Source of the DNA: a virus
Lineage: Duplodnaviria; Heunggongvirae; Uroviricota; Caudoviricetes
Direction: 5' to 3' (one strand)
IMG/VR virus record: IMGVR_UViG_2695420793_000015
Span: 1-13,938 of that record
DNA: 13,938 nucleotides
Shown here: piece after piece, positions 1 through 13,695 of the stretch
How positions within the stretch are numbered: the first letter of the stretch is position 1
How the letters are laid out: each line of letters opens with the position of its first letter
Position numbers and translations under genes: made by a program
The notes under the pieces: model-generated
Told to the model about the DNA's origin: nothing
The model's input: only the letters and a program-made list of their open reading frames with translations
Databases searched by the model: none

Positions 1-270
1 ATGAAAGAGCTTGAGTTAAAGAAACCGATTATCGCTCATGGTGAGACACTCTCCGTACTGGAGTTTGATGAACCCACCGGGAAGGATGTCCGCGAGCTGG
101 GGTATCCCTACCAGATGAATCAGGATGAGTCCGTCAGACTTCTGGCGCATGTGGTGTCGAAATACATTGTGCGGCTGGCGAAAGTGCCGCAAAGCTCTGT
201 CGACCAGATGTCTCCGGCAGACCTGAATGCAGCGGCGTGGCTTGTGGCTGGTTTTTTCCTCCAGGCCTGA
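1..270 (+). CDS. Phage tail assembly chaperone (Mu gp41 / P2 gpE-like); may be 5'-truncated by the window edge
   Basis: Small ORF immediately upstream of the tape measure gene, with a second ORF overlapping its 3' end in the -1 frame. This is the conserved chaperone position in tailed phages. Confidence 0.6.
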   Translation: MKELELKKPIIAHGETLSVLEFDEPTGKDVRELGYPYQMNQDESVRLLAHVVSKYIVRLAKVPQSSVDQMSPADLNAAAWLVAGFFLQA

Positions 271-419
271 CGGCTGAATACCTCACTGATCGCTTCTTTG
301 ACTGCGCCAGCTACTGGCGCATTAATCCCTTCGAATTGCTGAATATGCCGATCAGTGAAATTCCCTTGCTGGTCAGTCAGGCAAACAGGATAGAGCAGGA
401 GAAACGCACACATGGCTGA
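1..419 (+). CDS. Predicted frameshift-extended tail assembly chaperone (G-T-like fusion via -1 shift near 252-258)
   Basis: Joining frame 1 (1..258) to frame 3 (to 419) would give ...VAGFF-PPGLTAEYLTDRFFDCASYWRINPFELLNMPISEIPLLVSQANRIEQEKRTHG. The arrangement is conserved upstream of tape measure genes. Confidence 0.4.
252..258 (+). other. Putative -1 programmed ribosomal frameshift slippery heptamer T_TTT_TTC
   Basis: In the frame of ORF 1..270, codons GGT-TTT-TTC place TTTTTTC in the X_XXY_YYZ register. The -1 frame (ORF 237..419) stays open from here to the TGA at 417-419, which overlaps the tape measure ATG at 412. Confidence 0.5.
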
Positions 420-2244
420 ATTTGAGCTTAAGGCGTTGATCACCGGTGTCGACAGGCTTTCTCCCGCGCTGTCGAAAATGCAAAAGAAAATCCGGGGATT
501 TAAACGCCAGGCGGAAGAGGCGTCACAGGGTGGGCTGGCGCTTGGTGGCGGACTGGCAGCGGGGCTGACGCTTTCCCTGAAATCTTATGCCGATCAGGAA
601 AACGCCGCTACCGGGCTGAAAGTCGCCATGATGGATGCGAACGGCGAGGTTGGAAAGAGCTTTCAGGACATCAATAAACTGGCTATTGGCCTGGGTAACC
701 AGCTACCCGGTACAACGGCTGATTTCCAGAACATGATGCAGATGCTGGTGCGTCAGGGGATCCCGGCAGAAAACATTCTGGGTGGTGTGGGTAAAGCGAC
801 AGCTTATCTTGCGGTACAACTGAAAAAAACACCGGAAGCGGCTGCCGAGTTTGCTGCAAAGATGCAGGATGCTACCGGAACGGCGTCAGAAGACATGATG
901 GGGCTGTTCGACACTATCCAGAAGGCGTTTTATCTGGGCGTTGACGATACCAACATGTTGTCCTTCTTCACTAAAACCAGTTCTGTTCTGAAGATGGTGA
1001 ACAAGGATGGTCTTCAGGCTGCACAGAGCCTTGCCCCCATCAGCGTCATGATGGATCAGATGGGGATGAACGGGGAGTCGGCAGGTAATGCCCTGCGAAA
1101 AGTTATCCAGTCCGGATTAAGCGTTAAGAAAATCAGGGACGTTAATAAAGTTATGGCCCGCCAGAAACTCGGGGTACAGCTCGATTTTACTGACGGCAAA
1201 GGAAGTTTTGGCGGTCTTGATAACATGTTCAGGCAACTGGCAAAGCTGCGAAAACTGACCGACGTTAAGCGAACCGGTGTACTTAAGGCAATATTTGGTG
1301 ATGATGCCGAAACCCTTCAGGTGGTCAATGCACTAATCGATAAAGGAAAGGATGGCTACGATCAGATCCAGCAGAAGATGCATAAACAGGCCAGCCTGAA
1401 TAAACGTGTTCAGGCACAGCTTGGTACGCTGTCCAACCTGTGGGAGGCAATGACAGGGACCGCAACTAACGGCCTTGCGGCTATTGGCGGCGCATTTTCT
1501 GGTGACGCTAAAAATATCACACAATGGCTGGGGGAGTTGGGGGAGAAATTCACGAAGTTTGCGGATGAAAATCCCCGGGTTATTCGCGGCGTCGTCGGGC
1601 TTGCTGCCGGTCTTGCGATTCTGAAACTGGGATTGATGGGCGTGGGCAGTGCCATCAGTATTGTCAGCAGGATTATGTCGATGACGCCGATTGGCATGAT
1701 TGCGACGGCGATTGCTCTGGCTGCGGGATTAATTATCACTAACTGGGATGTTGTCGGACCTTATTTCAAGAAGCTCTGGGAAACCATTGGTCCTTATTTT
1801 GAGGCAGGTTGGGAACTTCTGAAGAAGGTTTTTGCCTGGTCGCCGCTGGGGATGGTGATCAATAACTGGGGACCGGTTGTTAAGTGGTTTCAGGATATGT
1901 GGGACAAGCTGAAGCCAATTATTGAGTGGTTTACCGACAGTTCCGGTGACACGGTCGATGCCATTAACTCTGCGCAGTGGGGCGCGGGTGCTTATGATGC
2001 TTATGGGACGGGAATACCGGCGCGGGGATACACACCTTATCCGGCGGTGGATCCGGCTCAGGCAAACAACGCCTCCGGTGCCACAGGCCCGAATCCCTTC
2101 ATGATTAATAAAGCTACCGCGCCAAAAGTTGATGGTGAGATCAAGGTATCATTTATAAATATGCCATCAGGTATGCGGGTTACGGAAACACGCTCCAGTG
2201 GCATTGATATAAATCACGATGTTGGCTATACCCGATTTTGGTAG
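412..2244 (+). CDS. Phage tail tape measure protein
   Basis: 610-aa ORF with an Ala/Gly/Met/Gln-rich central region, hydrophobic segments and a C-terminal Trp-rich repeat region (GPYFKKLWETIGPYFEAGWELL...). It follows the chaperone/frameshift pair and precedes the baseplate genes. Confidence 0.9.
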   Translation: MAEFELKALITGVDRLSPALSKMQKKIRGFKRQAEEASQGGLALGGGLAAGLTLSLKSYADQENAATGLKVAMMDANGEVGKSFQDINKLAIGLGNQLPGTTADFQNMMQMLVRQGIPAENILGGVGKATAYLAVQLKKTPEAAAEFAAKMQDATGTASEDMMGLFDTIQKAFYLGVDDTNMLSFFTKTSSVLKMVNKDGLQAAQSLAPISVMMDQMGMNGESAGNALRKVIQSGLSVKKIRDVNKVMARQKLGVQLDFTDGKGSFGGLDNMFRQLAKLRKLTDVKRTGVLKAIFGDDAETLQVVNALIDKGKDGYDQIQQKMHKQASLNKRVQAQLGTLSNLWEAMTGTATNGLAAIGGAFSGDAKNITQWLGELGEKFTKFADENPRVIRGVVGLAAGLAILKLGLMGVGSAISIVSRIMSMTPIGMIATAIALAAGLIITNWDVVGPYFKKLWETIGPYFEAGWELLKKVFAWSPLGMVINNWGPVVKWFQDMWDKLKPIIEWFTDSSGDTVDAINSAQWGAGAYDAYGTGIPARGYTPYPAVDPAQANNASGATGPNPFMINKATAPKVDGEIKVSFINMPSGMRVTETRSSGIDINHDVGYTRFW

Positions 2245-2272
2245 CCAGGATTCCCCTCACAGGTATTGCTGG

Positions 2273-2300
2273 TTGTAAGTCATAAATAGAGTGATAGAAT
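2273..2300 (+). promoter_or_regulatory. Putative sigma70 promoter for the moron gene (-35 TTGTAA, 16-bp spacer, -10 TAGAAT)
   Basis: TTGTAA at 2273-2278 and TAGAAT at 2295-2300, in the AT-rich gap between the tape measure stop and the 2336 ATG. Identified by eye only. Confidence 0.25.
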
Positions 2301-2335
2301 TAATGCACATTTAGAAAAATGTTAATAGGCGAAAA

Positions 2336-2866
2336 ATGAAAGGCTATATCACAGCAAGTGTAATTCTTGGAGCAGCGGCTATTTTTTCATCTCTCATAAT
2401 CTCTGGCAACATCTCCTTTAAAGATGAACATATTATTCAGTTATCTGGAGGAGCCATAAAACTTGGTGATGTTTATAAAGAAAATAAATTGATAAGTGCA
2501 AAGATTATTTTTCCAGATAATCAGGGTGAACAGATTCTTGTTGTCGACGGCAATCCTGAAAACTTTAAGGAGGATTTTCAGGAGAAATTAAATAAAGTAA
2601 TAAAAACTTTAAATGCGTCAAAGAAAAAAGATGAAGAGAAAGTTAGCCTGGATAATTTAAGTGTTATTGAAGAGTCTAAACTAGAGCTCGTTTCTGCGGT
2701 GCGTTACTCTGCTCAGTATGTTCCTATGTTTACTCTGACGCTGGACAAAAAAGAAATTACCATGCCTAAAAATACGGTAATATTTCCATTTGCCAGCGAT
2801 GAAACAGCTAAGTATTTAAATGAACAACAGCAAAAGTATAAAGATTCGTTGTTTCTGACTCGCTAA
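2336..2866 (+). CDS. Hypothetical membrane-anchored or secreted protein encoded by a low-GC moron; function unknown
   Basis: 176-aa ORF with an N-terminal hydrophobic segment (ITASVILGAAAIFSSLIISG) and a Lys/Glu/Asn-rich remainder. Its AT-rich composition contrasts sharply with the GC-rich tail genes on both sides, and it is bracketed by a promoter-like sequence and a strong intrinsic terminator. Confidence 0.7.
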   Translation: MKGYITASVILGAAAIFSSLIISGNISFKDEHIIQLSGGAIKLGDVYKENKLISAKIIFPDNQGEQILVVDGNPENFKEDFQEKLNKVIKTLNASKKKDEEKVSLDNLSVIEESKLELVSAVRYSAQYVPMFTLTLDKKEITMPKNTVIFPFASDETAKYLNEQQQKYKDSLFLTR

Positions 2867-2886
2867 TTAATAAAATTCATTACAAG

Positions 2887-2912
2887 GCCACCTTCTAATA
2901 GGTGGCTTTTTT
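2887..2912 (+). terminator. Rho-independent terminator downstream of the moron gene
   Basis: Stem GCCACCT (2887-2893), loop TCTAAT, stem AGGTGGC (2900-2906), then TTTTTT (2907-2912). Confidence 0.7.
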
Positions 2913-2921
2913 ATTTTCGGA

Positions 2922-4256
2922 GTGTATATGACGTGGAAAGACAGGCTTCAGGATGCGTCATTTCGAGGTGTGCCGTTTAAGGTTGAAGAAGAAAGTGCGG
3001 GAACCGGTCGCCGTGTGGAAACACATGAATACCCGAACCGCGACAAGCCCTATACCGAAGATCTGGGAAAAGTCACTTTCCGCCCGTCCATCACAGCTTA
3101 TGTGGTGGGAGATGACTGCTTTGACCAGCGCGATCGCCTGATTGAAGCGCTGAATAAACCCGGTCCCGGCACGCTTGTCCACCCGACATATGGTGAGCTG
3201 AAAGTCTGTGTTGACGGGGAAGTTCGGGTCAGCACATCGAAAAGTGAAGGGCGTATTGTCCGCTTTGACCTGAAGTTTGTCGAAGCAGGAGAACTCTCTT
3301 ACCCCACATCAGGTGCGGCGACGGCGCAGACGCTGATGTCATCCTGTTCTGCACTGGATGACAGCATCAGTGACAGCTTCAGTGGTTTCAGTATCGATGG
3401 TGTGGCGGATTTCGTGCAGAACGACGTTATCGGTAATGCCAGCATAATGCTGGGGTATGTTTCTGATGCGATGAAAGTGGTGGATTCTGCCGTATCGGAT
3501 GCCGCCAGGCTGTTGCAGGGGGATATCTCGGTACTTCTGCCGCCGCCATCGTCAGGCAAAAATTTCGTTGAGCAGGTGCAGAAAATGTGGCGTACCGGGA
3601 AACGCCTTTATGGTAACGCCAGCGACCTGGTCACCATGATCAAAACGCTTTCCGGTGTCAGCCTCGGCAGCGATCTGCAACCGCGCGGCGTCTGGAAAAC
3701 GGACAGTAAAACCACCGCCACGGCTACGCAGCAGCGTAATGTGGTTGCCAGCACCCTTCGTACGACCGCAATCAGCGAAGCGGCGTATGCCATCACCCGA
3801 TTGCCTGCGCCAACAACTTCCGCGGTGATGCAGAATTCCGCAGTGGGGCAGGCAACAACACCTGCGCAGAGCACTGGCTGGCCTTCCGTTACGCATCCGG
3901 CACTGAACAATGCACCGGCGGTGAAAAACACGGTTGACCTGCCGACGTGGGAAGAACTGACTGACATTCGCGACACACTGAATACGGCAATTGATAAGGA
4001 GTTGTCCCGTACAACCAGTGATGCGCTGTTTCTGGCGCTGCGCCGGGTGAAAGCAGATCTGAATGCGGATATCAACACGCGCCTTGAACAGTCTGCACGG
4101 ATCATTCAGCGCACACCGGATGAGGTTTTACCCGCGCTGGTGCTGGCGGCGACCTGGTTTGATAACGCGGCGCGTGACGCGGACATTATCCGGCGTAATG
4201 CCATTACGCATCCCGGCTTTGTGCCGGTGATCCCTCTGAAGGTGCCAGTGCAATGA
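2922..4256 (+). CDS. Phage DNA circulation protein (Mu gpN-like); true start probably ATG at 2928
   Basis: 444-aa ORF in the position between tape measure and baseplate hub, as in Mu-type tail modules. The N-terminal region resembles the DNA-circulation family. GGAG lies 5 nt before the 2928 ATG, and the 3' end overlaps the next gene (ATGA). Confidence 0.75.
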   Translation: MYMTWKDRLQDASFRGVPFKVEEESAGTGRRVETHEYPNRDKPYTEDLGKVTFRPSITAYVVGDDCFDQRDRLIEALNKPGPGTLVHPTYGELKVCVDGEVRVSTSKSEGRIVRFDLKFVEAGELSYPTSGAATAQTLMSSCSALDDSISDSFSGFSIDGVADFVQNDVIGNASIMLGYVSDAMKVVDSAVSDAARLLQGDISVLLPPPSSGKNFVEQVQKMWRTGKRLYGNASDLVTMIKTLSGVSLGSDLQPRGVWKTDSKTTATATQQRNVVASTLRTTAISEAAYAITRLPAPTTSAVMQNSAVGQATTPAQSTGWPSVTHPALNNAPAVKNTVDLPTWEELTDIRDTLNTAIDKELSRTTSDALFLALRRVKADLNADINTRLEQSARIIQRTPDEVLPALVLAATWFDNAARDADIIRRNAITHPGFVPVIPLKVPVQ

Positions 4257-5332
4257 ACGACAATGTCACGCTACGGGTAAATGGCCGGGAGTGGAATGGC
4301 TGGACATCGGTACGCATCGGTGCCGGTATTGAACGGCTGGCGCGGGATTTCAGTGTGGAGATCACCCGACAGTGGCCGGGAGATGAGGGTATCACCACGC
4401 TTCAGCCGCGCATTAAAAACGGTTCAAAAGTGGAGGTGCTGATTGGTGATGAGCTGGTGATCACCGGCTGGGTGGAGGCGACGCCCGTTCGTTACGATGC
4501 CCGTTCGGTCAGCACCGGTATTGCCGGACGCAGTCTGACCGCTGACCTGATTGACTGTGCAGCCGAACCGACACAGTTTAACGGACGATCGCTGGTACAG
4601 ATTGCGCAGGCGCTTGCTGCGCCTTTCGGCATTGAGGTGGTGAACAACAGTGCGCCGTCGGGTGTTATTCCTGATGTCCAGCCTGATCACGGCGAAACGG
4701 TGATTGAGGTGATCAACAAAATACTCGGTCAGCAGCAGGCACTGGCTTACGACGACCCGCACGGCAGGCTGGTGATTGGCGGTATTGGCTCAACGCGGGC
4801 ACATACCGCGCTGGTACTTGGGGAAAATATCCTTTCCTGTGATACGGAGAAGAGTATCCGGGAGCGGTTTTCTGTTTACCAGGTGGCGGGGCAGCGTGCC
4901 GGAAACGACGATGATTTCGGTGAGGCCACCACCACCGCGCTGCGGGCCCGCACAGAGGACGCATTTATTGCCCGTTACCGTCCGATGTATATCAGGCAGA
5001 CAGGGCAGGCTACGGGGGCAGGCTGTATTGCCCGTGCGGACTTTGAAGCCCGACAACGGGCGGCGCGGACGGATGAAACCACCTATGTGGTTCAGGGCTG
5101 GCGACAGGGTAACGGTACGCTGTGGCAGCCCAACCAGCGGGTGATTGTCTTCGATCCGGTCTGTGGTTTCGACAATACCGAACTGCTTGTCTCGGAAGTC
5201 ACGTTTACTCAGGACCAGAACGGCACCCTGACGGAAATCCGTGTCGGCCCGCCTGATGCTTATCTGCCTGAACCTGAAGCCCCCGGCGCGCGGAAAAAGA
5301 AAAAAGCCAGAGTACAGGAGGACCCGTTCTGA
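4253..5332 (+). CDS. Baseplate hub protein (Mu gpP/gp44-like, P2 gpD-like)
   Basis: 359-aa ORF, translationally coupled on both sides, in the conserved position after the DNA circulation gene. Confidence 0.75.
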   Translation: MNDNVTLRVNGREWNGWTSVRIGAGIERLARDFSVEITRQWPGDEGITTLQPRIKNGSKVEVLIGDELVITGWVEATPVRYDARSVSTGIAGRSLTADLIDCAAEPTQFNGRSLVQIAQALAAPFGIEVVNNSAPSGVIPDVQPDHGETVIEVINKILGQQQALAYDDPHGRLVIGGIGSTRAHTALVLGENILSCDTEKSIRERFSVYQVAGQRAGNDDDFGEATTTALRARTEDAFIARYRPMYIRQTGQATGAGCIARADFEARQRAARTDETTYVVQGWRQGNGTLWQPNQRVIVFDPVCGFDNTELLVSEVTFTQDQNGTLTEIRVGPPDAYLPEPEAPGARKKKKARVQEDPF

Positions 5333-5880
5333 TGAGGACGATTGAAGCCATGCAGCGACAACTCCTCGGCCTGATTGGGCGGGCGGTGGTGAAAAGCATC
5401 AGTGCCGCCACGAAATGTCAGACCGTGGATGTGTCCCTGATTGCCGGTGAACCCAAAGCCGGGGTTGAACATCTTGAACCCTACGGTTTTACCGCAAGGG
5501 CAAACAGCGGTGCGGAAGCGGTGGTGTTGTTTCCGGATGGCGACCGTTCTCATGCGGTGGTTGTTACGGTGTCGGACCGTCGCTACCGCCTGAAAGGGCT
5601 GCAAACGGGGGAGGTGGCTGTCTATGACGATCAGGGGCAGTCCGTGACGCTGACCCGGGAGGGGATCGTGGTGGACGGTGCAGGTAAAACGATCACGTTT
5701 CGCAATGCGCCCAGAGCACGTTTTGAAATGGACCTGGAAGTGACCGGACAGGTGAAAGACCTGTGCGACTCCGGCGGCACCACCATGTCAGCGATGCGGC
5801 TTGCCTATAACGGGCATCGTCACAGAGAGAACGGTCAGGGCAGTAACACCGACAAACCTGATAAAGCGATGGAGGCATGA
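5332..5880 (+). CDS. Baseplate assembly / spike protein V (Mu gp45-like)
   Basis: 182-aa ORF whose sequence (…VVLFPDGDRSHAVVV…GEVAVYDDQGQSVTLTREGIVVDGAGKTITF…) fits the gpV spike family. Stop and start overlap (TGATG). Confidence 0.8.
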   Translation: MRTIEAMQRQLLGLIGRAVVKSISAATKCQTVDVSLIAGEPKAGVEHLEPYGFTARANSGAEAVVLFPDGDRSHAVVVTVSDRRYRLKGLQTGEVAVYDDQGQSVTLTREGIVVDGAGKTITFRNAPRARFEMDLEVTGQVKDLCDSGGTTMSAMRLAYNGHRHRENGQGSNTDKPDKAMEA

Positions 5881-6305
5881 TGGAACTGTGGCTGACGGTG
5901 AACGGTAAACGCACCTGCGCCAGCGCACCGCTGGATCCGCTGACCCGCGCCGTGGTGATTTCCCTGTTTACCTGGCGGCGGGCGGAGCCTGATGACAACG
6001 CCGACGTCCCGATGGGATGGTGGGGGGATACCTGGCCTGCGGTACCGAATGACCGTTACGGCTCCCGACTGTGGCTGCTTCAGCGCAGCAAACTGACCAA
6101 TCAGCTGGTGCAGACGGTAAGGGGGTATATCCGCGAATGCCTGCAATGGATGATTGATGACGGCGTGGTGTCCCGTATTGATCTGGATATCCGCCGCACC
6201 GGGATTAATGAACTGGGTAACAGTATCACTCTCTGGCGTCGTGACGGACCGGTAATGATTTCTTTTGATGATCTGTGGAGTGCGATAACGCATGGCGGAC
6301 AGTGA
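5877..6305 (+). CDS. Baseplate protein (Mu gp46-like, P2 gpW-like)
   Basis: 142-aa ORF coupled to its neighbours (ATGATG overlap), in the conserved position between the spike and J-like genes. Confidence 0.7.
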   Translation: MMELWLTVNGKRTCASAPLDPLTRAVVISLFTWRRAEPDDNADVPMGWWGDTWPAVPNDRYGSRLWLLQRSKLTNQLVQTVRGYIRECLQWMIDDGVVSRIDLDIRRTGINELGNSITLWRRDGPVMISFDDLWSAITHGGQ

Positions 6306-7350
6306 ATTTCAGCGCCCGACGCTGGCAGAAAATATCAGTATGCTCCGTAACGATTTATTCGCCAGGCTGGACGTCAGCGACACGCTCCGGCGCATGGATG
6401 AAGACGTGCGGGCAAAGGTGTATGCGGCGGCGCTGCATACGGTTTACGGGTACATCGATTATCTGGCAATGAACATGCTGCCTGACCTGTGCGATGAGTC
6501 CTGGCTGGCGCGACATGCTGCGATGAAACGGTGTCCGCGCAAGGGGGCCACGGCTGCCAGCGGGTATATGCGCTGGGAAGGTGTCAGCGATGGCCTGAAG
6601 GTGACTGCCGGGAGCGTGATTCAGCGCGATGACCTGGTTCAGTACACGGCAACTGCCGATGCAACCAGCTCCGGTGGTGTCCTGCGTGTGCCGATCACTT
6701 GCTCAACTACAGGCGCGGTCGGTAACGCTGACGACGGTACGGCATTAATCCTGGTCACGCCGGTGAATGGTCTGCCGTCTTCCGGTGTGGCTGACACCCT
6801 TACAGGCGGATTTGATACTGAAGAGCTGGAAACGTGGCGCGCCCGCGTCATTGAGCGGTATTACTGGACGCCTCAGGGCGGGGCTGACGGGGACTATGTC
6901 GTCTGGGCTAAAGAAGTGCCCGGCATTACCCGCGCATGGACATACCGACACTGGATGGGAACGGGGACTGTCGGTGTGATGATTGCCAGCAGTGACCTGA
7001 TTAATCCCATTCCGGAAGAATCAACGGAAACGGCGGCAAGACAACATATCGAGCCACTGGCCCCGGTGGCAGGCTCTGATTTGTATGTGTTCAGGCCGGT
7101 GGCACATACGGTGGATTTTCATATCCGTGTGACGCCGGACACACCGGAAATACGGGCTGCAATCACCGCGGAGTTGCGTTCGTTCCTGCTGCGTGATGGT
7201 TATCCGCAGGGAGAACTGAAGGTGTCACGTATCAGTGAAGCGATTTCCGGTGCGAACGGGGAATACAGCCATCAGTTGCTTGCACCGGCGGACAATATCT
7301 CCATTGCAAAAAATGAACTGGCGGTTCTGGGGACGATTTCATGGACGTGA
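6292..7350 (+). CDS. Baseplate J-like protein (Mu gp47-like)
   Basis: 352-aa ORF of typical baseplate-J size, in the conserved position, overlapping both neighbours. Confidence 0.8.
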
Positions 7351-7925
7351 CAAACGATGATTACATCCGTCTGTTGTCGGCACTGCTGCCGCCCGGTCCG
7401 GCGTGGTCAGCCAGCGATCCGGCGATTGCAGGTGCGGCACCGTCATTAACCCGTGTTCATCAGCGTGCGGATGCCCTGATGCGGGAGCTGGATCCGCGCA
7501 CCACCACTGAACTGATAAACCGCTGGGAGCGTCTGTGCGGTCTGCCGGATGAATGTATTCCCGCAGGGACACAGACCCTTCGCCAGCGTCAGCAACGGCT
7601 GGATGCGAAGGTTAATCTGGCGGGCGGCATCAATGAGGATTTTTACCTTGCACAGCTTGCTGCCCTGGGCAGACCAGATGCCGCCATCACGCGATACGAC
7701 AAAAGCACGTTCACCTGCTCATCGGCCTGTACTGACGCTGTGAATGCGCCGGAATGGCGGTATTACTGGCAGGTCAACATGCCAGCCGCCACCAACACCA
7801 CCTGGATGACATGTGGCGATCCCTGTGATTCCGCACTGCGTATCTGGGGCGACACCGTTGTCGAGTGCGTGCTTAACAAACTCTGCCCTTCGCATACCTA
7901 CGTAATTTTTAAATATCCGGAGTAA
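7341..7925 (+). CDS. Tail protein, Mu gp48-like / P2 gpI-like (DUF2313-type)
   Basis: 194-aa ORF directly upstream of the tail fibre gene, translationally coupled to the J-like gene. Confidence 0.7.
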
Positions 7926-7928: not shown

Positions 7929-8738
7929 ATGCATCGTATAGACACGAAAACCGCGCAGAAGGATAAGTTCGGCGCGGGTAAGAACGGTTTTACCCGTGGT
8001 AACCCCCAGACCGGCACACCTGCCACCGATCTGGATGATGACTACTTTGACATGTTGCAGGAAGAACTTTGTAGCGTGGTGGAGGCCTCCGGTGCCAGCC
8101 TGGAGAAAGGGCGGCATGACCAGCTGCTTACCGCACTTCGTGCGCTGCTGTTAAGCCGCAAGAATCCGTTTGGCGATATCAAATCGGATGGCACTGTGCA
8201 AACGGCTCTCGAAAACCTTCGTTTGGGGGCAGGCGCTCCAGCTATCGGAATTCCGTTCTTCTGGCCGTCCACAGCGATGCCAAATACAGTGATAGATGAG
8301 TGGTCAGATATGGTGTTTCTGAAATTCAACGGTGCGACATTTTCGGCAACAACTTATCCGAAGCTGGCGAAGGTGATCCCCAGCTTGACGCTAACCGAAG
8401 CTCGTGGTGAGTTTCCGCGTATTTGGGATGATGGGCGAGGTGTAGATGTCGGGCGCGCACTAATGAGCGCACAGGGTGATGCTATGAGAAATATCTCTGG
8501 AACAGTTCGGCTAGCATCCAACTCATATAATCAAAATACAGCAAGGCAAATGACGGGGGCATTTGGATGGAGTGACTCATCGGCTGGAGATGTTACTAAT
8601 TTTTCACTTACAGCTGCATCAAACACATCTAACTATAAAAATGGGGGGTTTACATTTGATTCTTCAACACAGGTTCCAACGGCCTTGGAGAATCGACCGA
8701 GAAACATTGCTTTTAACTTTCTTGTAAGGGCTAAATAA
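7929..8738 (+). CDS. Tail fibre protein (Mu S-like): constant N-terminal part plus the currently expressed variable C-terminal cassette
   Basis: 269-aa ORF with a conserved tail-fibre N-terminus (…[38 protein letters not shown]…) and a Ser/Thr/Asn/Gly-rich C-terminus. GGAG precedes the ATG. A recombination site lies inside the gene at 8206-8231. Confidence 0.85.
8206..8231. repeat. Putative left crossover site of the invertible segment (hix/gix-like 12-2-12: CTCTCGAAAACC-TT-CGTTTGGGGGCA)
   Basis: The half-site TCTCGAAAACC closely resembles Hin/Gin half-sites (TTCTTGAAAACC / TTCCTGTAAACC). The central TT occupies codon positions 2-3 of the stf frame, the same register as in the partner site. 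Confidence 0.55.
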
Positions 8739-9331
8739 TGAAACCTGTTTTTGACGAAAATGGACTGGCTACTGAACCTGGGGAAACTCGTTGTTTCTAT
8801 TACGACGCTGTGACGTCTGAATATATGGGATGGTCAGACGAATATATTAATCTGGGTGTCAGTATGCCAGGGCATTCAACAGATATTGATCCTGGTGATG
8901 AGGTGGCTGGAAAGATTCCAGTATTTACTGGGATTGGATGGGAGCAGCAGGAAGATCATCGCGGGGAAACAGTTTACTCAACTGAAAGTGGTGATGCATC
9001 AATGGTCGATTATATTGGTCCCATCAAGGATGGATTTACAAGCACTGCACCTTCAACGCCATATGATAAATGGGACGGTGAAAAATGGGTGACAGATACT
9101 GAGGCACAGAATATCGCCGTAGTAGAGGCGGCAGAAGCACAGCGGCAGTTTCTGATTGATACTGCAATGGCTTCCATTGGTCTGATCCAACTGAAATTAC
9201 AGGCAGGTCGGAAGCTGACTGAGGCAGAAACAACCCGACTTAACGCTGTGCTTGATTACATTGACGCGGTGACGGCAACAGATACCAGCACCGCACCGGA
9301 TGTCATCTGGCCTGAACTGCCGGAGGCGTAG
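8738..9331 (+). CDS. tfa: Tail fibre assembly protein (Mu U-like)
   Basis: 197-aa ORF whose ATG overlaps the stf stop (TAATG). The C-terminal region (…LDYIDAVTATDTSTAPDVIWPELPEA) is typical of tail-fibre assembly chaperones. Confidence 0.8.
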   Translation: MKPVFDENGLATEPGETRCFYYDAVTSEYMGWSDEYINLGVSMPGHSTDIDPGDEVAGKIPVFTGIGWEQQEDHRGETVYSTESGDASMVDYIGPIKDGFTSTAPSTPYDKWDGEKWVTDTEAQNIAVVEAAEAQRQFLIDTAMASIGLIQLKLQAGRKLTEAETTRLNAVLDYIDAVTATDTSTAPDVIWPELPEA

Positions 9332-9746
9332 GCCATTCAATATCTGGAGCACTGGAGGAATCAACCAGTTCCAGTGCGTCCAGATAATCCAGCCACAAAT
9401 TATATTGCGCCAGTTCCTCACCTTTCAGGCGACCAATCGCTGCTTTACCAGGCCATTGCTTACTGTATATGTATTCGTTGACCTGATTAATCAATTGCTG
9501 CTTTTCCAGTTCGGCTGCGGCAATTTGTTCCTCATGAGTTGGCGGTGGAATTTCCCCCCAGGTGGGAAGGCCATCATCACCCGCGATGCGTACTTTCCCT
9601 TGCAACGTTCTGTCTTCAATAAATTCCAGGTAAGTGTCATATGTCACTTCGACAATATCAGCAAGTTCCCATCCGGCCTGTTCATATTTCGCCACATCAT
9701 TTTTAGCGAAAAAACTGTTATTTGAGGCGCTATAAACTATTTCCAT
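9303..9746 (-). CDS. Alternative tail fibre assembly protein (Mu U'-like), convergent with tfa
   Basis: 147-aa minus-strand ORF with a Tfa-like C-terminus (…LWLDYLDALELVDSSSAPDIEWPTPPAVQAR). It overlaps the 3' end of the plus-strand tfa by 29 bp and sits directly downstream of the minus-strand fibre cassette. Confidence 0.8.
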   Translation of the reverse strand: MEIVYSASNNSFFAKNDVAKYEQAGWELADIVEVTYDTYLEFIEDRTLQGKVRIAGDDGLPTWGEIPPPTHEEQIAAAELEKQQLINQVNEYIYSKQWPGKAAIGRLKGEELAQYNLWLDYLDALELVDSSSAPDIEWPTPPAVQAR

Positions 9747-9747
9747 A

Positions 9748-10323
9748 TTAATACCCTACTGCAAGATAAAAAACAGATTCACCAGCATCCTGGGATGCTG
9801 TCCCTGGAACGCCAGACCATACCTTATTTATAAAAGCAAAACCTGTTTTACTGAGGTCTGACGCTCTGTACATTGGGCTGAATATCCAATAGTTGGATGC
9901 ATATGTTTGTCCGAAAACAATTCCATAGCACTGGTTTGTAAATGGCGTAGAAAATAATTTTCCACCATTACCAGCGATAGCACCGAATCGCATCTGGAAT
10001 CCATTCGGGAAATTAATTCCGCCTGCCGGTGAAGACCAGTAAGACATATCAGGTATTTGCCCAGCACTATTTCCCACGTTTTTTGTTGCAACGGTTCCTA
10101 ACCCAAGATTAGCTCTTGCGTCAGATTTATTTGTTAACTCATAAAGATTATTTGCCTTTTGAAGTGCTCCTGTTATGCGTAAATCATCACCAGCGGCAAC
10201 GGTTCCGACTGTCGTGCCCACATCCCTTTTCGCCGCTTCTCCTAAACCAACCTTTGAAATATTTTTCTGAATCAGGTGATATTTCGCCTCTTCTCCTGTT
10301 TTTACAACAGGAGAAGCACTCAT
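9748..10323 (-). CDS. Alternative tail fibre C-terminal cassette (Mu S'-like), silent in this orientation
   Basis: Gly/Asn/Ser-rich fibre-tip-like sequence on the minus strand. The part from about 10249 downward would fuse in frame to the constant stf N-terminus after inversion. The N-terminal 24 codons and the ATG at 10323 lie outside the segment and are probably not a real start. Confidence 0.7.
   Translation of the reverse strand: MSASPVVKTGEEAKYHLIQKNISKVGLGEAAKRDVGTTVGTVAAGDDLRITGALQKANNLYELTNKSDARANLGLGTVATKNVGNSAGQIPDMSYWSSPAGGINFPNGFQMRFGAIAGNGGKLFSTPFTNQCYGIVFGQTYASNYWIFSPMYRASDLSKTGFAFINKVWSGVPGTASQDAGESVFYLAVGY
10237..10262. repeat. Putative right crossover site of the invertible segment (TTCTCCTAAACC-AA-CCTTTGAAATAT)
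   Basis: The half-site TTCTCCTAAACC matches the left site's half-site at 9 of 11 positions and resembles gix. The central AA on + (TT on -) is in inverted orientation to the left site and in the same codon register in the minus-strand cassette frame. Confidence 0.5.
10290..10316. repeat. Perfect 27-bp palindrome (CTTCTCCTGTT-TTTAC-AACAGGAGAAG) overlapping the invertase ribosome-binding site
   Basis: Two 11-bp arms are exact reverse complements around a 5-bp centre. The right arm contains AGGAG, 9 nt upstream of the pin ATG. The arms share the CTTCTCCT motif with the right crossover half-site. Confidence 0.6.
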
Positions 10324-10885
10324 GATTTACGGGTATGTTCGTGTATCAACAAATCATCAGGATACAGAGTTGCAACGTCTTGCACTTGAGTCAGCTGGCT
10401 GTGAGCGAATTTATGAAGAATATGCCAGTGGCAGAACAGCTAATCGCCCTGTGTTAAAGGAATTAATTACGGTGATGAAAAGTGGAGATGAGTTGATTGT
10501 CTGGAAGTTAGATCGGATAGGGAGAAATGTGCTGCATGCGCTATTGATGTTTCAAAATCTGCACGAAAAAGGTGTTAATTTTCGGAGTATTACAGATGGC
10601 GTAGACCTGAAAACAGCAAGTGGTCGCTATAATTTCCGTAATATTCTTTCTGCTGCGCAGTATGAATCTGATTTGAATAGCGAGCGAACTTTAGCTGGTT
10701 TGGCTATTGCCAGATCCAAAGGCCGGATTGGTGGGCGTAGACCGAAGTTTAGCGACGAGCAGTGGCAACAGATGGGAGCGCTCATAGCGGCAGGGAAATC
10801 ACGGCGTTATGTTGCACGTATCTATAACGTTGGGCTATCAACCCTATATAAACGATTTCCTGTTACTGGCATTCAAACGAAATAA
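10322..10885 (+). CDS. pin: Serine-recombinase DNA invertase (Pin/Gin/Hin family)
   Basis: 187-aa ORF with the resolvase/invertase N-terminus (YVRVSTNHQ, catalytic Ser) and the characteristic C-terminal DNA-binding region (…GRIGGRRPKF…VGLSTLYKRF…). It lies beside the invertible tail-fibre segment. Confidence 0.9.
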   Translation: MIYGYVRVSTNHQDTELQRLALESAGCERIYEEYASGRTANRPVLKELITVMKSGDELIVWKLDRIGRNVLHALLMFQNLHEKGVNFRSITDGVDLKTASGRYNFRNILSAAQYESDLNSERTLAGLAIARSKGRIGGRRPKFSDEQWQQMGALIAAGKSRRYVARIYNVGLSTLYKRFPVTGIQTK

Positions 10886-11028: not shown

Positions 11029-11277
11029 TTAGTGAACAAACCACTCGTCAGCAGATTCCCAGGTATCTTTCAGAGTCTCCTGAACAAAAGTTTTTGCAGA
11101 ATCCTTATCTGCGGTGCGTGTAACAGAAAGGCCATCGTTGCTGGTGGCTTTTACGATCACCTCTACATCGTCATAACGTTTACTGATGCGTCGGGTTAAT
11201 TCTTCCTTTAACGCATCCACAGCACCGGTTGGCATTTTAGTCATTTTTTCTTTGGCTATACAGATTTCAATACGCAT
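11029..11277 (-). CDS. dinI: DinI-family DNA-damage-inducible protein (prophage-encoded)
   Basis: 82-aa ORF ([31 protein letters not shown]…LSV…[17 protein letters not shown]) that aligns along its whole length with E. coli DinI as recalled from memory (MRIEVTIAK…GAIDAL…ELSRRI…QETWESADDWFV). Two LexA boxes lie upstream. Confidence 0.85.
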
Positions 11278-11290
11278 AAAAGTCCCTCTA

Positions 11291-11310
11291 TACTGTGTTT
11301 GTATACAGTA
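11291..11310. promoter_or_regulatory. LexA box 1 (TACTGT-GTTTGTAT-ACAGTA)
   Basis: Exact CTGT-N8-ACAG SOS-box architecture with the flanking TA/TA, upstream of the dinI-like gene and overlapping its predicted transcription start. Confidence 0.75.
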
Positions 11311-11313
11311 TCA

Positions 11314-11342
11314 TTTTTAACTGTATGGATAAACAGTGTCAA
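11314..11342 (-). promoter_or_regulatory. Putative SOS-regulated sigma70 promoter of the dinI-like gene (-35 TTGACA, 17-bp spacer, -10 TAAAAA)
   Basis: On the minus strand a perfect TTGACA (11342..11337), a 17-nt spacer coinciding with LexA box 2, then TAAAAA (11319..11314). The -35 overlaps the integrase stop codon. Confidence 0.4.
11319..11338. promoter_or_regulatory. LexA box 2 (AACTGT-ATGGATAA-ACAGTG)
   Basis: Second CTGT-N8-ACAG motif, 8 bp from box 1, lying in the spacer between the predicted -35 and -10 of the dinI promoter. Confidence 0.65.
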
Positions 11343-12436
11343 GAGGTCTTATTTCTGCTCCTTTGGAGCTCTTCAAAACGATTATGTAAAGATTTCGGAT
11401 ACAGTTCGGTATATACCTGCCATAGCACGTTTAATGAACGATGCCCTGTAACCTGGGCGACTTCCTCAATACTAAAACCAGCCTCAAATAAGCGACTTGC
11501 CCCTTCTCTACGCAAATCATGGTATCGCAGATCTTTAATACCTAATTTGCTTCTTACCCTCTGGAATCCCGCAGTAACAGAAGTGCTGTTATATGGAAAA
11601 ATGAATTCTGATTTTTTGGGTTGTCGTTGGACGATATCCCAGGCTTCCCCAAGCAAGGCTACTTTCATATGGTTGCCTTCCTTTTTACGTGGATCTTTCC
11701 TGTCTCTTACGAGTATGGATTTTTGTTCCTGATCGAGATCCTCCCATCGTAATCGGCATACTTCACCGATTCGCATACATGACCACACAGAAAATTTGAG
11801 GATATCAACGAACGGAATTTTTGAGCATTTATGTGTAGATCGTTGTTGAAGACCTTCAATGAGCATGTCCAGTTCATCAGATGCTGGTCTACGATTACGA
11901 CGATTTGATTTACCAATTAAACCAAGTTTAAGTAGATATGGACGAGCGGCTTTTGCTGGGTTTGATGTGTAATTAATTCCATATACAGGTTTGGCAGCAT
12001 CCAGAACACTGCCAAGATAACTAACATCGTGGCTAACTGTAGCTGGACCTGCACCAGCGTTGTTTCTTAGCCTGCAATGTTCAATTACGTCATTTTCTGT
12101 CAGTTCAGATAGTTTGATCGCGGAGATGTCACTATCCATAAGCAGTTCCAGCACATATCTTTTAGTACGGCCTGCTTTACCTCCGGCATTTGGGTCATTT
12201 AAATATTTGTGTAGTAAGTCACGGACTGTAAGTCCGTCAACTGCATTTGATGATGGAATGCCATATAGATCTAATTCCATCACTTTCTGTGTGCCCCATG
12301 TTTTGGCATGAGCATGTTTAGGGAATGTTTTGCTTTCCCTGTAAGTGATAACACCTTTTTCTTTGATAATCACATTACAGCGATAGCGTGGTGTGCCATC
12401 GGATTTTAGTCGTTTCTCTATGTTATAGTACGCCAT
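11339..12436 (-). CDS. int: Tyrosine site-specific integrase (dusA-associated type)
   Basis: 365-aa ORF with a tyrosine-recombinase catalytic region (…LRYHDLRREGASRLFEAG…VTGHRSLNVLWQVYTE…). It is the last prophage gene and is divergently oriented from dusA. A GAGG ribosome-binding site lies upstream. Confidence 0.9.
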   Translation of the reverse strand: MAYYNIEKRLKSDGTPRYRCNVIIKEKGVITYRESKTFPKHAHAKTWGTQKVMELDLYGIPSSNAVDGLTVRDLLHKYLNDPNAGGKAGRTKRYVLELLMDSDISAIKLSELTENDVIEHCRLRNNAGAGPATVSHDVSYLGSVLDAAKPVYGINYTSNPAKAARPYLLKLGLIGKSNRRNRRPASDELDMLIEGLQQRSTHKCSKIPFVDILKFSVWSCMRIGEVCRLRWEDLDQEQKSILVRDRKDPRKKEGNHMKVALLGEAWDIVQRQPKKSEFIFPYNSTSVTAGFQRVRSKLGIKDLRYHDLRREGASRLFEAGFSIEEVAQVTGHRSLNVLWQVYTELYPKSLHNRFEELQRSRNKTS

Positions 12437-12456
12437 TACACGACCTCGTTATTTCG

Positions 12457-12491
12457 GGTTCCCATAAAACGTGGGAACCTGTTCGGGAACC
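12457..12491. repeat. Inverted repeat GGTTCCCA-N7-TGGGAACC plus a third GGGAACC copy in the int-dusA intergenic region; candidate integrase/att regulatory element
   Basis: 8-bp perfect inverted repeat at 12457-12464 and 12472-12479, with a further GGGAACC at 12485-12491, between the divergent int and dusA starts. Confidence 0.35.
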
Positions 12492-12524
12492 TAACGCGAG
12501 AAAAATAGCCTGAAATGTTCAAAA

Positions 12525-13562
12525 ATGCACGATAATCATGAAACACAAAAAATTAATCAAACCAGCGTGATGCCTGAAAAAACTGGTGTTTACTGGAATT
12601 CTCGGTTTAGCATTGCTCCTATGCTCGACTGGACGGACAGACATTGCCGCTATTTCTTGCGTCTGCTTTCCCGCAATACGTTGCTGTATACCGAAATGGT
12701 GACCACAGGGGCGATTATTCACGGTAAAGGTGATTACCTGGCGTACAGTGAAGAAGAACATCCGGTAGCGTTGCAACTCGGCGGTAGCGATCCGGCGGCG
12801 CTGGCACAGTGTGCGAAGCTGGCAGAAGCGCGTGGATATGATGAGATCAACCTGAATGTCGGCTGCCCGTCTGACCGGGTGCAGAACGGCATGTTTGGTG
12901 CGTGTCTGATGGGTAATGCGCAGCTGGTTGCCGACTGTGTGAAAGCGATGCGCGATGTGGTGTCGATTCCAGTGACGGTGAAAACGCGTATTGGCATCGA
13001 TGACCAGGACAGCTATGAATTTCTCTGCGATTTCATCAACACTGTTTCCGGCAAAGGCGAGTGTGAGATGTTTATCATCCACGCACGTAAAGCCTGGCTT
13101 TCGGGGTTAAGCCCGAAAGAAAACCGTGAAATCCCGCCGCTCGATTATCCGCGTGTGTATCAACTGAAGCGTGACTTTCCGCATCTGACAATGTCGATTA
13201 ACGGTGGTATCAAGTCGCTGGAAGAGGCCAAAGCACACCTGCAACATATGGATGGCGTGATGGTCGGGCGCGAGGCGTATCAGAATCCGGGTATTCTGGC
13301 GGCAGTAGACCGGGAGATCTTTGGTTCCTCGGATACCGATGCCGATCCGGTGGCGGTAGTGCGCGCCATGTATCCGTACATTGAGCGTGAACTCAGCCAG
13401 GGGACGTATCTCGGCCATATTACCCGGCATATGTTGGGCTTGTTCCAGGGTATTCCTGGCGCGCGGCAGTGGCGGCGTTATTTAAGTGAAAATGCCCATA
13501 AAGCGGGTGCAGACATTAATGTGCTGGAACACGCGCTCAAACTGGTGGCGGATAAGCGTTAA
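12525..13562 (+). CDS. dusA: tRNA-dihydrouridine synthase A
   Basis: 345-aa ORF with Dus-family motifs (…[14 protein letters not shown]…NLNVGCPS…) and full-length resemblance to enterobacterial DusA; pspG follows immediately, as in the E. coli chromosome. A shorter start at the in-frame ATG at 12570 is possible. Confidence 0.9.
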
Positions 13563-13592
13563 CTTTTCACCAAAAAGTAGTCAAATTCACCA

Positions 13593-13620
13593 CGCCCTGC
13601 GCACCGTCGCGGGGCGTTTT
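13593..13620 (+). terminator. Possible intrinsic terminator after dusA
   Basis: GC-rich imperfect hairpin (CGCCCTGCG…CGCGGGGCG) followed by TTTT, about 30 bp after the dusA stop. Confidence 0.3.
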
Positions 13621-13644
13621 GCTGTTAAATCAATAGATTATTTT

Positions 13645-13660
13645 TGGCATGATTCTTGTA
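13645..13660 (+). promoter_or_regulatory. Putative sigma54 promoter of pspG (TGGCAT-N5-TTGTA)
   Basis: The GG (13646-13647) and the -12 element are at the consensus spacing for TGGCAC-N5-TTGCA, about 36 bp upstream of the pspG ATG. The -12 element is TTGTA rather than TTGCA. Confidence 0.4.
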
Positions 13661-13695
13661 ATGCCAGCAAGAGATTTCATATTTGGGAGAGCATC

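What the first reader, a model, noticed from the sequence alone, without database searches (positions are those of the whole stretch)
2245..2920. Low-GC moron encoding a membrane-anchored protein of unknown function, inserted between the tape measure and DNA circulation genes
An AT-rich 176-aa ORF (2336..2866) with an N-terminal hydrophobic anchor or signal sequence and a charged Lys/Glu-rich body sits inside an otherwise GC-rich, tightly coupled tail operon. It has its own promoter-like sequence and a strong intrinsic terminator, which is the classic moron architecture. Morons inside tail modules often give the lysogen a fitness trait such as superinfection exclusion, which can act on incoming tape-measure-mediated DNA injection, or envelope modification. 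Nothing in the protein lets me assign a family, so it is a strong candidate for an uncharacterised prophage-encoded exclusion or defence function.
Basis: partly seen in the sequence, partly recalled or inferred. Interest (0 to 1): 0.75.

Follow-up and report, generated by a model that had tools for sequence, protein, structure and literature searches.

The report
Mobile prophage moron encoding exported membrane protein
A small, foreign-looking gene cassette sits between two tail genes of an E. coli prophage and encodes a membrane-anchored protein of an uncharacterised family that faces the periplasm; it is a good but unproven candidate for a factor that blocks infection by other phages.

Summary
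ORF 2336..2866 (176 aa) has 34% GC against 52-56% in its flanks. It lies between the tape-measure and DNA-circulation genes of an SfV-like E. coli prophage and is followed by a strong hairpin terminator.

It is not a tail part. Phages SfV, SfI, SfII and SfIV have an empty slot. Other relatives carry at least five unrelated cargo genes there, four of them also with export signals.

The cassette occurs in 179 of 5,426 complete E. coli genomes. It is 10-20 times less diverse than the tail genes around it, so one young allele has spread across diverged backbones.

Function is inferred only. The most likely role is envelope-level superinfection exclusion, analogous to HK97 gp15 but unrelated in sequence. 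The promoter is unproven, and a terminator hairpin sits at this junction even in empty slots.

The parts
412..2244 (+). Left flank: tail tape measure protein gene (610 aa). Roughly its last 70 nt share the low diversity of the cassette.
   Evidence: PF10145 PhageMin_Tail, E 9.8e-27; RefSeq annotation; diversity profile
2245..2911 (+). The mobile cassette as a unit: upstream spacer, ORF and terminator. It is low in GC and low in diversity.
   Evidence: GC 0.31-0.35. Over 55 haplotypes, pi is 0.0026 in the ORF against 0.023-0.054 in flanking tail genes, and common polymorphism resumes at 2912. The cassette is absent from SfV/SfI/SfII/SfIV.
2273..2300 (+). Sigma-70 promoter-like site: TTGTAA, 16 nt, TAGAAT, with an extended -10 TG
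   Evidence: Consensus scan, 9 of 12 matches, not above chance for the region. Comparable sites lie upstream of the homologue in 2 of the 3 other loci scanned.
2327..2329 (+). Weak Shine-Dalgarno-like AGG, 6 nt before the ATG
   Evidence: Read directly from the sequence
2336..2866 (+). ORF of 176 aa, a member of PHROG 5485, an uncharacterised family
   Evidence: Family of about 77 clusters at 50% identity. dN/dS about 0.08.
2339..2404 (+). Codons 2-23: N-terminal transmembrane helix (signal anchor, or possibly a cleavable signal peptide)
   Evidence: AlphaFold helix 2-23, pLDDT 88-92. Hydropathy and flank charges are N-in/C-out in 57 of 58 family members. There is a conserved small-residue face at S8, G12, S18/S19 and S23.
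2429..2482 (+). Codons 32-49: the most conserved motif of the family, [NH]-[VI]-[IL]-x-[TL]-x-x-G-x-V-x-L-G-x-V-Y-x-E. It forms a beta-hairpin just outside the membrane.
   Evidence: Column conservation in A2: G44 is invariant; G39, L43 and E49 are present in 57 of 58. Strands 32-36 and 39-44 in the model.
2884..2917 (+). Intrinsic terminator: 10-bp stem, 6-nt loop, then a T-run
2919..4256 (+). Right flank: RBS GGAG (2919-2922) and the DNA circulation (Mu gp43/N-like) gene, ATG at 2928
   Evidence: PF07157, E 3.8e-34; RefSeq start

Best explanation
SHOWN.
- Region 2245-2911 is a horizontally mobile single-gene moron cassette: a promoter-like spacer, a 176-aa ORF and an intrinsic terminator.
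- It occupies a recombination hot spot between the tape-measure and DNA-circulation genes of SfV-like prophages, which combine a lambdoid genome with a Mu-like contractile tail.
- The gene is dispensable for the virion.
- It is one young allele that has spread across diverged tail backbones in E. coli.
- It belongs to a conserved Gammaproteobacterial family under purifying selection. Diverse phages and small integrative islands carry family members as accessory cargo.

INFERRED FROM SEQUENCE AND MODEL.
- The product is a bitopic inner-membrane protein. It has a short positive N-terminus in the cytoplasm, one TM helix with a conserved small-residue face, and a periplasmic alpha/beta domain of about 150 aa.
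- The domain has no solved structural relative. Its most conserved element is a beta-hairpin lying next to the membrane surface.

INFERRED BY ANALOGY.
- In the lysogen the gene is transcribed from its own weak promoter and stopped by its terminator. In lytic growth it is presumably also read through by Q-antiterminated late transcription.
- At the inner-membrane/periplasm interface the protein interferes with incoming phages at the DNA-delivery step. The likely means is binding a tail-tip, tape-measure or ejection component, or the host membrane factor that component uses.
- This would be superinfection exclusion of the HK97 gp15, P22 SieA or TP-J34 Ltp type, with an unrelated protein.
For: Moron status.
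- The slot is empty in phages SfV, SfI, SfII and SfIV and in most of the 1,096 E. coli genomes that carry the backbone.
- Cassette GC is 0.34 against 0.52-0.56 in the flanks.
- The terminator is strong.

Hot spot.
- At least five other unrelated cargos use the same slot.
- Four of them carry export signals: two signal-peptide proteins, one lipoprotein with a lipobox, and one TM-anchored OB-fold protein. The OB-fold protein matches PHROG 8545 'superinfection exclusion Sie-like' at E 7e-33.
- The fifth is a PH-domain protein.
- Carrier genomes among 5,426: this cassette 179, the others 101, 85, 55 and 28.

Recent spread.
- pi is 0.0026 in the ORF against 0.023-0.054 in the flanks.

Real gene.
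- About 77 clusters at E<=1e-3, all roughly 170-200 aa.
- Homologues in the same slot in Leclercia, Lelliottia and Edwardsiella at 41-58% identity.
- dN/dS 0.08.

Autonomy.
- Family members lie between antiterminator Q and the holin in a Citrobacter lambdoid prophage.
- Others lie among inserts in an E217-like baseplate module, and in Pseudomonas integrative islands.

Topology.
- 57 of 58 members have a 19-aa hydrophobic N-segment with a positive N-flank and a net-negative C-flank.
- The AlphaFold model has pLDDT 92.1 and a helix at 2-23.

Precedent.
- HK97 gp15 is a moron next to the TMP gene. [quoted passage not shown]
- P22 SieA and TP-J34 Ltp act likewise (PMC10883804).
- A Q-family antiterminator is present in the same prophage type.
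Against: - No experiment or expression data bears on function.
- The protein shows no similarity to any known exclusion or defence protein: PADLOC 0 hits, Pfam and NCBIfam 0, BLASTP against HK97 gp15 E = 17.
- The promoter-like site is not above chance, and no site meeting the scan's criteria lies upstream of the homologue in locus L002.
- Genomes carrying the cassette hold a second SfV-like TMP/DNA-circ module about as often as the whole set: 6 of 60 records against roughly 12%. There is thus no genomic sign of exclusion of like phages.
- Known tape-measure-directed exclusion proteins act on siphoviruses. None is established for Mu-like contractile tails.
- Signal-peptide cleavage cannot be excluded, so the protein may be soluble in the periplasm rather than anchored.
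Confidence: 0.4

Rival explanations
1. Lysogenic-conversion factor unrelated to phage exclusion. An exported envelope protein changes host fitness, for example serum or bile resistance, adhesion, envelope-stress tolerance, or immunity to a periplasm-acting bacteriocin or T6SS effector. This would be in the manner of lambda Bor or Lom.
For: It shares the moron anatomy and export signal of the best explanation. Carriers come from many hosts and sources, including human urine, pig, poultry, cattle and water. There is no depletion of co-resident SfV-like modules. Morons are known to encode such functions (PMC3594210).
Against: No similarity to Bor, Lom or any known immunity or virulence family. 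No lipobox and no cysteine. Distant family members live in marine Pseudomonas islands, where animal-host traits are unlikely. One alternative cargo of the same slot is Sie-like.
Confidence: 0.25
2. Late-expressed helper of the phage's own lytic cycle. It would be made with the tail operon and protect progeny from abortive adsorption or injection into lysing cells and debris (T5 Llp-like logic), or modulate the envelope before lysis.
For: It is embedded on the same strand in the late tail operon. A Q-type antiterminator in this prophage type would read through the hairpin. A hairpin is tolerated at this junction even in functional phages. Induced or isolated phages carry cargo in this slot: SKA5, vB_EcoM-720R4 and EPP-1.
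Against: Many functional relatives lack any cargo. Family members also sit outside late operons, in integrative islands without virion genes. This rival overlaps mechanistically with the best explanation rather than excluding it.
Confidence: 0.12
3. Membrane-acting abortive-infection effector, or a toxin-like or anti-defence protein. It would disturb the inner membrane when triggered rather than block entry.
For: It has a single TM helix with a conserved small-residue face suited to helix-helix packing or oligomerisation. Many defence effectors are small TM proteins (general knowledge).
Against: It is a single gene with no sensor partner in any context examined. No PADLOC match. The large conserved part is the periplasmic domain, not the TM segment.
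Confidence: 0.08
4. Structural or assembly component of the Mu-like tail, or a spurious ORF in AT-rich filler DNA.
For: Its position is inside the tail module, and the same slot is occupied by homologues in several genera.
Against: It is absent from the infectious phages SfV, SfI, SfII and SfIV. It is replaced by unrelated genes in others. It is found at non-tail positions. It carries an export signal. Purifying selection with dN/dS 0.08 and a 77-cluster family rule out a spurious ORF.
Confidence: 0.02

Closest known systems
HK97 gp15 moron (Cumby et al. 2012; reviewed in PMC3594210)
   Same: Both are single-gene, low-GC morons with their own terminator placed directly before the next tail gene's RBS. 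Both lie inside the tail operon next to the tape measure gene. Both products have one N-terminal TM helix. gp15 is expressed from the prophage and blocks DNA entry in a manner dependent on the tail tube or TMP (PMC3594210).
   Different: gp15 is 62 aa and YebO-like. It lies upstream of the TMP gene of a siphovirus. The protein here is 176 aa with a folded periplasmic domain of about 150 aa, lies downstream of the TMP gene of a Mu-like contractile tail, and has no sequence similarity to gp15 (E = 17). Its function is untested.
Membrane or surface-anchored injection blockers: P22 SieA, lactococcal Sie2009-type proteins, S. thermophilus TP-J34 Ltp
   Same: All are prophage-encoded, about 160-aa envelope proteins that block DNA delivery after adsorption. 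Escape mutations map to ejection proteins or the TMP (PMC10883804).
   Different: SieA has three TM segments. Ltp is a lipoprotein with helix-turn-helix-like domains. No Pfam, PHROG or PDB similarity to any of them was found. The protein here has no cysteine and so no lipobox.
PHROG 5485 (unknown function)
   Same: Full-length match, E 3.8e-108, residues 1-176 of 176. The gene is a member of this catalogued but uncharacterised phage protein family.
   Different: Nothing is known about the family. This work adds its range, topology, contexts and a confident fold model.
Other variable accessory-gene slots in temperate phage genomes (moron or defence hot spots, for example the Q-lysis region of lambdoid phages)
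   Same: Both are fixed junctions between conserved genes at which unrelated low-GC cargos alternate among close relatives. A family member occupies the Q-holin slot in Citrobacter.
   Different: This slot lies inside the tail/baseplate module. Its cargos are small single genes that mostly encode exported proteins, not recognised multi-gene defence systems.

Membership tests
Phage moron (Juhala/Hendrix definition) | Inserted between two genes that are adjacent in closely related phages | tested here: met
   In SfV, SfI, SfII and SfIV, TMP and DNA-circ are separated by only about 25-50 nt. The flanks are 95% identical to the window.
Phage moron (Juhala/Hendrix definition) | Base composition differs from the surrounding genes | tested here: met
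   GC 0.343 against 0.515 and 0.556; GC3 0.30 against 0.56 and 0.59. The same holds for homologues in Leclercia-type loci.
Phage moron (Juhala/Hendrix definition) | Own promoter | tested here: inconclusive
   TTGTAA-16-TAGAAT with TG at 2273-2300, but the count of such sites equals the shuffle expectation. The homologue loci give mixed results.
Phage moron (Juhala/Hendrix definition) | Own terminator | tested here: met
   Hairpin at 2884-2909 plus T-run, -15.6 kcal/mol, z -3.5. It co-segregates with the cassette. Caveat: a hairpin is present at this junction in all variants, including empty slots.
Phage moron (Juhala/Hendrix definition) | Expressed from the repressed prophage | not testable with these tools
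   No transcript data available.
HK97 gp15 / YebO-type exclusion protein | Sequence homology to gp15/YebO | tested here: not met
   BLASTP E = 17.
HK97 gp15 / YebO-type exclusion protein | Single N-terminal TM helix; gene next to the TMP gene in the tail operon | tested here: met
HK97 gp15 / YebO-type exclusion protein | Blocks DNA entry of superinfecting phage | not testable with these tools
   Needs plating and injection assays.
Known anti-phage defence systems (PADLOC-DB 2.0) | Match to any defence protein model | tested here: not met
   0 families at E<=1.
Lipoprotein exclusion factors (Cor, Llp, Ltp) | Lipobox with an invariant Cys after the signal sequence | tested here: not met
   No cysteine in the protein or in its close homologues.
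Sie-like OB-fold proteins (PHROG 8545 / PF12869) | Profile match | tested here: not met
   Only PHROG 5485 and 34391 match. There is no Pfam hit. An alternative cargo of the same slot does match PHROG 8545.
Mu-like tail structural module | Conserved presence and position in all functional relatives | tested here: not met
   Absent from SfV, SfI, SfII and SfIV. Family members also occur outside tail modules.
PHROG 5485 | Full-length profile match | tested here: met
   E 3.8e-108, residues 1-176 of 176.

The most novel reading that the evidence does not exclude
The protein would found a new, structurally novel class of periplasm-facing exclusion proteins that act on Mu-like contractile-tail phages. 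The TMP/DNA-circulation junction would be a dedicated exchange site for alternative envelope-level exclusion cassettes, co-inherited with the tail-tip and tape-measure alleles they must spare. This would make the poorly understood periplasmic and inner-membrane step of myovirus DNA delivery genetically tractable.
Probability: 0.25. Interest if true: 0.65.

Novelty: new member of a known kind. Interest (0 to 1): 0.45.

Why it matters
If the protein is an exclusion factor, it would be a new structural class acting at the inner membrane or periplasm. It would also give a handle on how Mu-like contractile-tail phages deliver DNA across the periplasm. Known tape-measure-directed exclusion proteins act on siphoviruses.

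Independently of function, the work defines a hot spot inside a tail module. At least six alternative single-gene cargos, mostly exported proteins, alternate there among prophages. These prophages occur in about a fifth of complete E. coli genomes. That makes a compact, testable set of candidates for lysogenic-conversion or exclusion screens. The 10-20-fold diversity dip shows that the cassette has spread recently among diverged prophages.

Tried and rejected
- Family assignment by sequence gave nothing. This covered Pfam on the protein and on all 58 aligned members, NCBIfam, PADLOC, and PDB by phmmer and by profile.
- A weak PHROG hit to an 'endonuclease' family (phrog_15137, E 0.014) has no support elsewhere and was discarded.
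- The fold searches gave no usable match.
  - AFDB Foldseek was unavailable.
- tblastn against 50,697 phage records found no copy in any deposited phage genome.
- The polylysogeny test showed no depletion of second SfV-like modules in carriers. It is a weak test.
- The 180-aa neighbour of the Pseudomonas homologue and the 162-aa cargo of phage 720R4 are not family members.
- Rfam found no RNA family anywhere in the window.
- No inverted repeats of at least 18 nt were found around the pin invertase region.
- Literature searches for the accession and for the peptide found nothing.
- The search for related loci with the deep alignment failed for lack of conserved stretches.

Full report
**Context**

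The window is part of an E. coli prophage with a Mu-like contractile tail module. On the + strand it holds, in order:
- a tail assembly chaperone (1..270);
- the tape measure protein (TMP; 412..2244, PF10145);
- the ORF in question (2336..2866);
- the DNA circulation protein (2928..4256, PF07157);
- the gpP/gp44-like hub (4253..5332), followed by gp45-48-type baseplate genes (5332..7925; annotated in the EC1515 copy), tail fibre and chaperone genes, and a Pin-type invertase.

An identical copy of the region in E. coli EC1515 lies in a complete lambdoid prophage. That prophage has a Q antiterminator, a lambda-type holin, a P27-type terminase and an HK97-type head. The flanks are about 95% identical to the Shigella serotype-converting phages SfV, SfI and SfII. 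This is therefore an SfV-like prophage.

**Observation check**

The ORF exists as described: ATG at 2336, stop ending at 2866, 176 aa. RefSeq annotates it as hypothetical protein WP_000679479.1.

- GC is 0.343 (GC3 0.30), against 0.515 and 0.556 (GC3 0.56 and 0.59) for the TMP and DNA-circulation genes.
- The N-terminus (residues 5-23) is strongly hydrophobic.
- A 10-bp hairpin at 2884-2909 followed by a T-run is a good intrinsic terminator: -15.6 kcal/mol, z -3.5, and no shuffle of 200 folds as well.
- A promoter-like site with an extended -10 lies at 2273-2300. Such sites are no more common here than in shuffled sequence, so I treat the promoter as plausible, not shown.

**It is an insertion, and the site is a hot spot**

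Of 5,426 complete E. coli genomes, 1,096 carry the flanking sequence but only 179 carry this cassette, at >=99% identity in 180 of 181 records.

In phages SfV, SfI, SfII and SfIV the two tail genes are separated by only about 25-50 nt. The gene is therefore dispensable for an infectious virion.

Other relatives carry unrelated genes in the same place:

| Cargo | Size | Export signal | Family match | Example | E. coli genomes |
|---|---|---|---|---|---|
| Signal-peptide protein | 170 aa | signal peptide | PHROG 8976 | phage SKA5 | 85 |
| Signal-peptide protein | 162 aa | signal peptide | PHROG 5586 | phage vB_EcoM-720R4 | 101 |
| Lipoprotein | 225 aa | LLLGGC lipobox | PHROG 1353 | SW071618 | 55 |
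| PH-domain protein | 125 aa | none | bPH_1 | intact in Edwardsiella phage EPP-1; split by IS1 in E. coli EC_J_9 | 28 |
| OB-fold protein | 110 aa | TM anchor | PHROG 8545 'superinfection exclusion Sie-like', E 7e-33 | a degraded prophage (EJN001) | not counted |

All these cargos are low in GC, 0.31-0.42. Five of the six cargo types, including this one, carry an N-terminal export signal.

**The terminator**

Every version of the junction ends with a GC-rich hairpin and T-run immediately before the conserved (C)GGAG-N-ATG of the DNA-circulation gene. This includes the empty one. The hairpin of the empty SfV slot (CCCACTCCGGTGGG) resembles that of the PH-domain cassette (CCCACTTCGGTGGG).

A terminator at this position is therefore a property of the junction, not of this cassette alone. 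Late transcription must read through it, presumably by Q antitermination (Q gene; inference). The particular stem in the window nevertheless belongs to this cassette, as the next section shows.

**Recent spread**

I aligned 55 distinct haplotypes that carry the cassette. These were IMG/VR loci plus the window, spanning the TMP gene to the hub gene.

| Segment | Nucleotide diversity (pi) |
|---|---|
| ORF 2336-2866 | 0.0026 |
| Upstream spacer 2245-2335 | 0.009 |
| TMP gene | 0.023 |
| DNA-circulation gene | 0.048 |
| Hub gene | 0.054 |

Common polymorphism stops about 70 nt before the TMP stop codon and resumes at 2912, directly after the terminator.

One young allele of the cassette, including its spacer and terminator, thus sits in tail backbones that are 10-20 times more diverged. 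That pattern is expected if the cassette has recently moved between prophages by homologous recombination in the flanks.

The same module also occurs in prophages at different chromosomal sites. It lies next to dusA in the window (integrase 11339..12436, Dus 12525..13562) and next to ssrA in EC1515.

**The protein family**

- Close homologues at 41-58% identity occupy the same slot in prophages of Leclercia, Lelliottia and Edwardsiella. They are again low in GC and are followed by a hairpin.
- They are more diverged than the neighbouring tail proteins: 53-55% identity against 72-82% for most tail proteins in the closest backbone.
- They are under purifying selection. dN/dS is 0.08 for the least saturated pair, similar to 0.05-0.07 for the hub gene.
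- A profile search of 1.84 billion representatives found 77 clusters at E<=1e-3, nearly all 170-200 aa.
- Named members come from Edwardsiella, Mangrovibacter, Citrobacter, Pantoea, Pseudomonas and Alkanindiges. All are annotated 'hypothetical'.

Distant members lie elsewhere:
- between antiterminator Q and the holin of a Citrobacter lambdoid prophage;
- among other inserts in the baseplate region of an E217-like myovirus prophage;
- in a Pantoea prophage remnant;
- in small Pseudomonas integrative islands with serine or tyrosine recombinases, and in one island a DUF5906 gene, but no virion genes.

The family is therefore autonomous single-gene cargo of mobile elements, not a tail part.

**Architecture**

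In 57 of 58 aligned members the N-terminus is a hydrophobic segment of about 19 residues. It has a short, purely positive N-flank and a net-negative C-flank, which predicts N-in/C-out.

The segment is at least as conserved as much of the soluble domain. It shows a recurring small-residue face at S8, G12, S18/S19 and S23. I read this as a retained signal anchor that packs against another helix. This is inference. Cleavage after I-I-S or I-S-G cannot be excluded. Either way, the C-terminal 150 residues are periplasmic.

There is no cysteine, so the protein is not a lipoprotein.

With the 58-sequence alignment, AlphaFold2 gives a confident model: pLDDT 92.1, pTM 0.76, with all five models between 90.9 and 92.1. 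Its elements are:
- helix 2-23;
- a membrane-proximal beta-hairpin (32-36 and 39-44);
- strands 46-58 and 65-72;
- helix 74-93;
- strands 114-126 and 132-143;
- helix 149-171.

The family's most conserved residues are G39, L43, G44, Y47 and E49 in the hairpin, and Y124 and L134 in the later sheet.

**Mechanism**

The following is shown:
- the region is a mobile, dispensable, selected, single-gene cassette;
- it encodes an exported or membrane-anchored protein;
- it sits in a slot that mostly holds exported proteins.

What I infer is this. The lysogen makes the protein and places its domain at the periplasmic face of the inner membrane. There it interferes with DNA delivery by incoming phages.

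The closest precedent is the original moron, HK97 gene 15. It is a 62-aa single-TM protein encoded next to the TMP gene, with its own terminator directly before the next gene. It is expressed from the prophage and blocks DNA entry in a manner dependent on the tail tube or TMP (PMC3594210). [quoted passage not shown] TP-J34 Ltp has the TMP as its target. Both show the same logic (PMC10883804).

There is no sequence relationship to gp15 (E = 17). No tape-measure-directed exclusion is established for Mu-like tails, and nothing here tests function.

One crude test was neutral. Six of the 60 best carrier records hold a second SfV-like TMP/DNA-circ module, against about 12% overall.

I put about 0.4 on envelope-level exclusion and 0.25 on a phage-unrelated conversion function. 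A late-cycle helper or an abortive-infection-type membrane effector each get less. A structural role or a spurious ORF gets essentially nothing.

**Verdict**

Its functional proposal is reasonable but untested.

The thing is a new member of a known kind: a tail-operon moron encoding an envelope protein. The protein family is uncharacterised and appears structurally novel. Interest is moderate at 0.45. The value lies in a well-defined candidate, a six-way cargo hot spot inside a tail module, and clear experiments.

Noticed in passing
window 2245-2927 and the same junction in L010, L011, L012, L014, L015, L106, L113: The TMP/DNA-circulation junction is a cargo hot spot with at least six alternative single-gene inserts plus an empty state. 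Five of the six inserts have export signals. One (EJN001, minus strand) matches PHROG 8545 'superinfection exclusion Sie-like'.
   Followed up: yes
L011 2262-2290 (SfV); L012 3470-3500; L106 2700-2725; L014 2270-2295: A GC-rich hairpin plus T-run sits just before the DNA-circulation RBS in every variant, including the empty slot of functional phages. The hairpin of the empty SfV slot resembles that of the PH-domain cassette, so the 'empty' state may derive from a deleted PH cassette.
   Followed up: partly
window 11029-13938: The right end of the window holds a DinI-like gene (11029..11277, minus strand), a tyrosine integrase (11339..12436, minus strand), then dusA (12525..13562) and pspG. This prophage therefore abuts dusA, a known integration target, with the integrase on the tail-fibre side. 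The same tail module with the cassette sits next to ssrA in E. coli EC1515 (L001).
   Followed up: partly
window 8738-10885: A Pin-type serine invertase (10322..10885) lies next to oppositely oriented tail-fibre-assembly genes (8738..9331 on +, 9303..9746 on -) and a 191-aa ORF (9748..10323 on -). This looks like an invertible host-range segment, but no inverted repeats of at least 18 nt were detected.
   Followed up: partly
L002 10013-11808; L009 10012-11819; L004 9355-11201: In the Leclercia-type prophages a second variable slot lies between the DNA-circulation and hub (gpP) genes. It holds two extra genes of 503-520 aa and 94 aa with no Pfam match. These are absent from the window and from L006.
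   Followed up: no
alignment of IMG/VR loci at window position 2911; NZ_CP101274.1 (H111); NZ_CM168021.1 (H150); L012; L015: Insertion sequences (IS1, IS5) recur in or beside cargo at this junction. One cassette-bearing haplotype has a large insertion exactly at 2911, after the terminator.
   Followed up: no
NZ_CP146678.1 (64,057 bp) and NZ_CP146675.1, E. coli MS 69-1 (H107, H108): The cassette-bearing tail module is present both on the chromosome and on a separate 64-kb record of the same strain. The second record may be an excised or episomal prophage copy, or an assembly duplicate.
   Followed up: no
L017 6634-8534; L021 6935-8531: In the Pseudomonas-type integrative islands the family member lies just downstream of a divergently oriented small serine recombinase (resolvase/invertase, 188-189 aa). 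In L017 it also follows a 180-aa signal-peptide protein that is unrelated to the family.
   Followed up: partly
window 2172-2244 versus L010, L011, L012 around 2200-2248: The last few codons of the TMP differ with cargo type: ...TRFW* here, ...TRFGR* in SfV, ...TRFR* in SKA5, ...THIGR* in EC_J_9. The low-diversity tract of the cassette extends about 70 nt into the TMP gene, so recombination breakpoints lie inside the TMP 3' end.
   Followed up: partly
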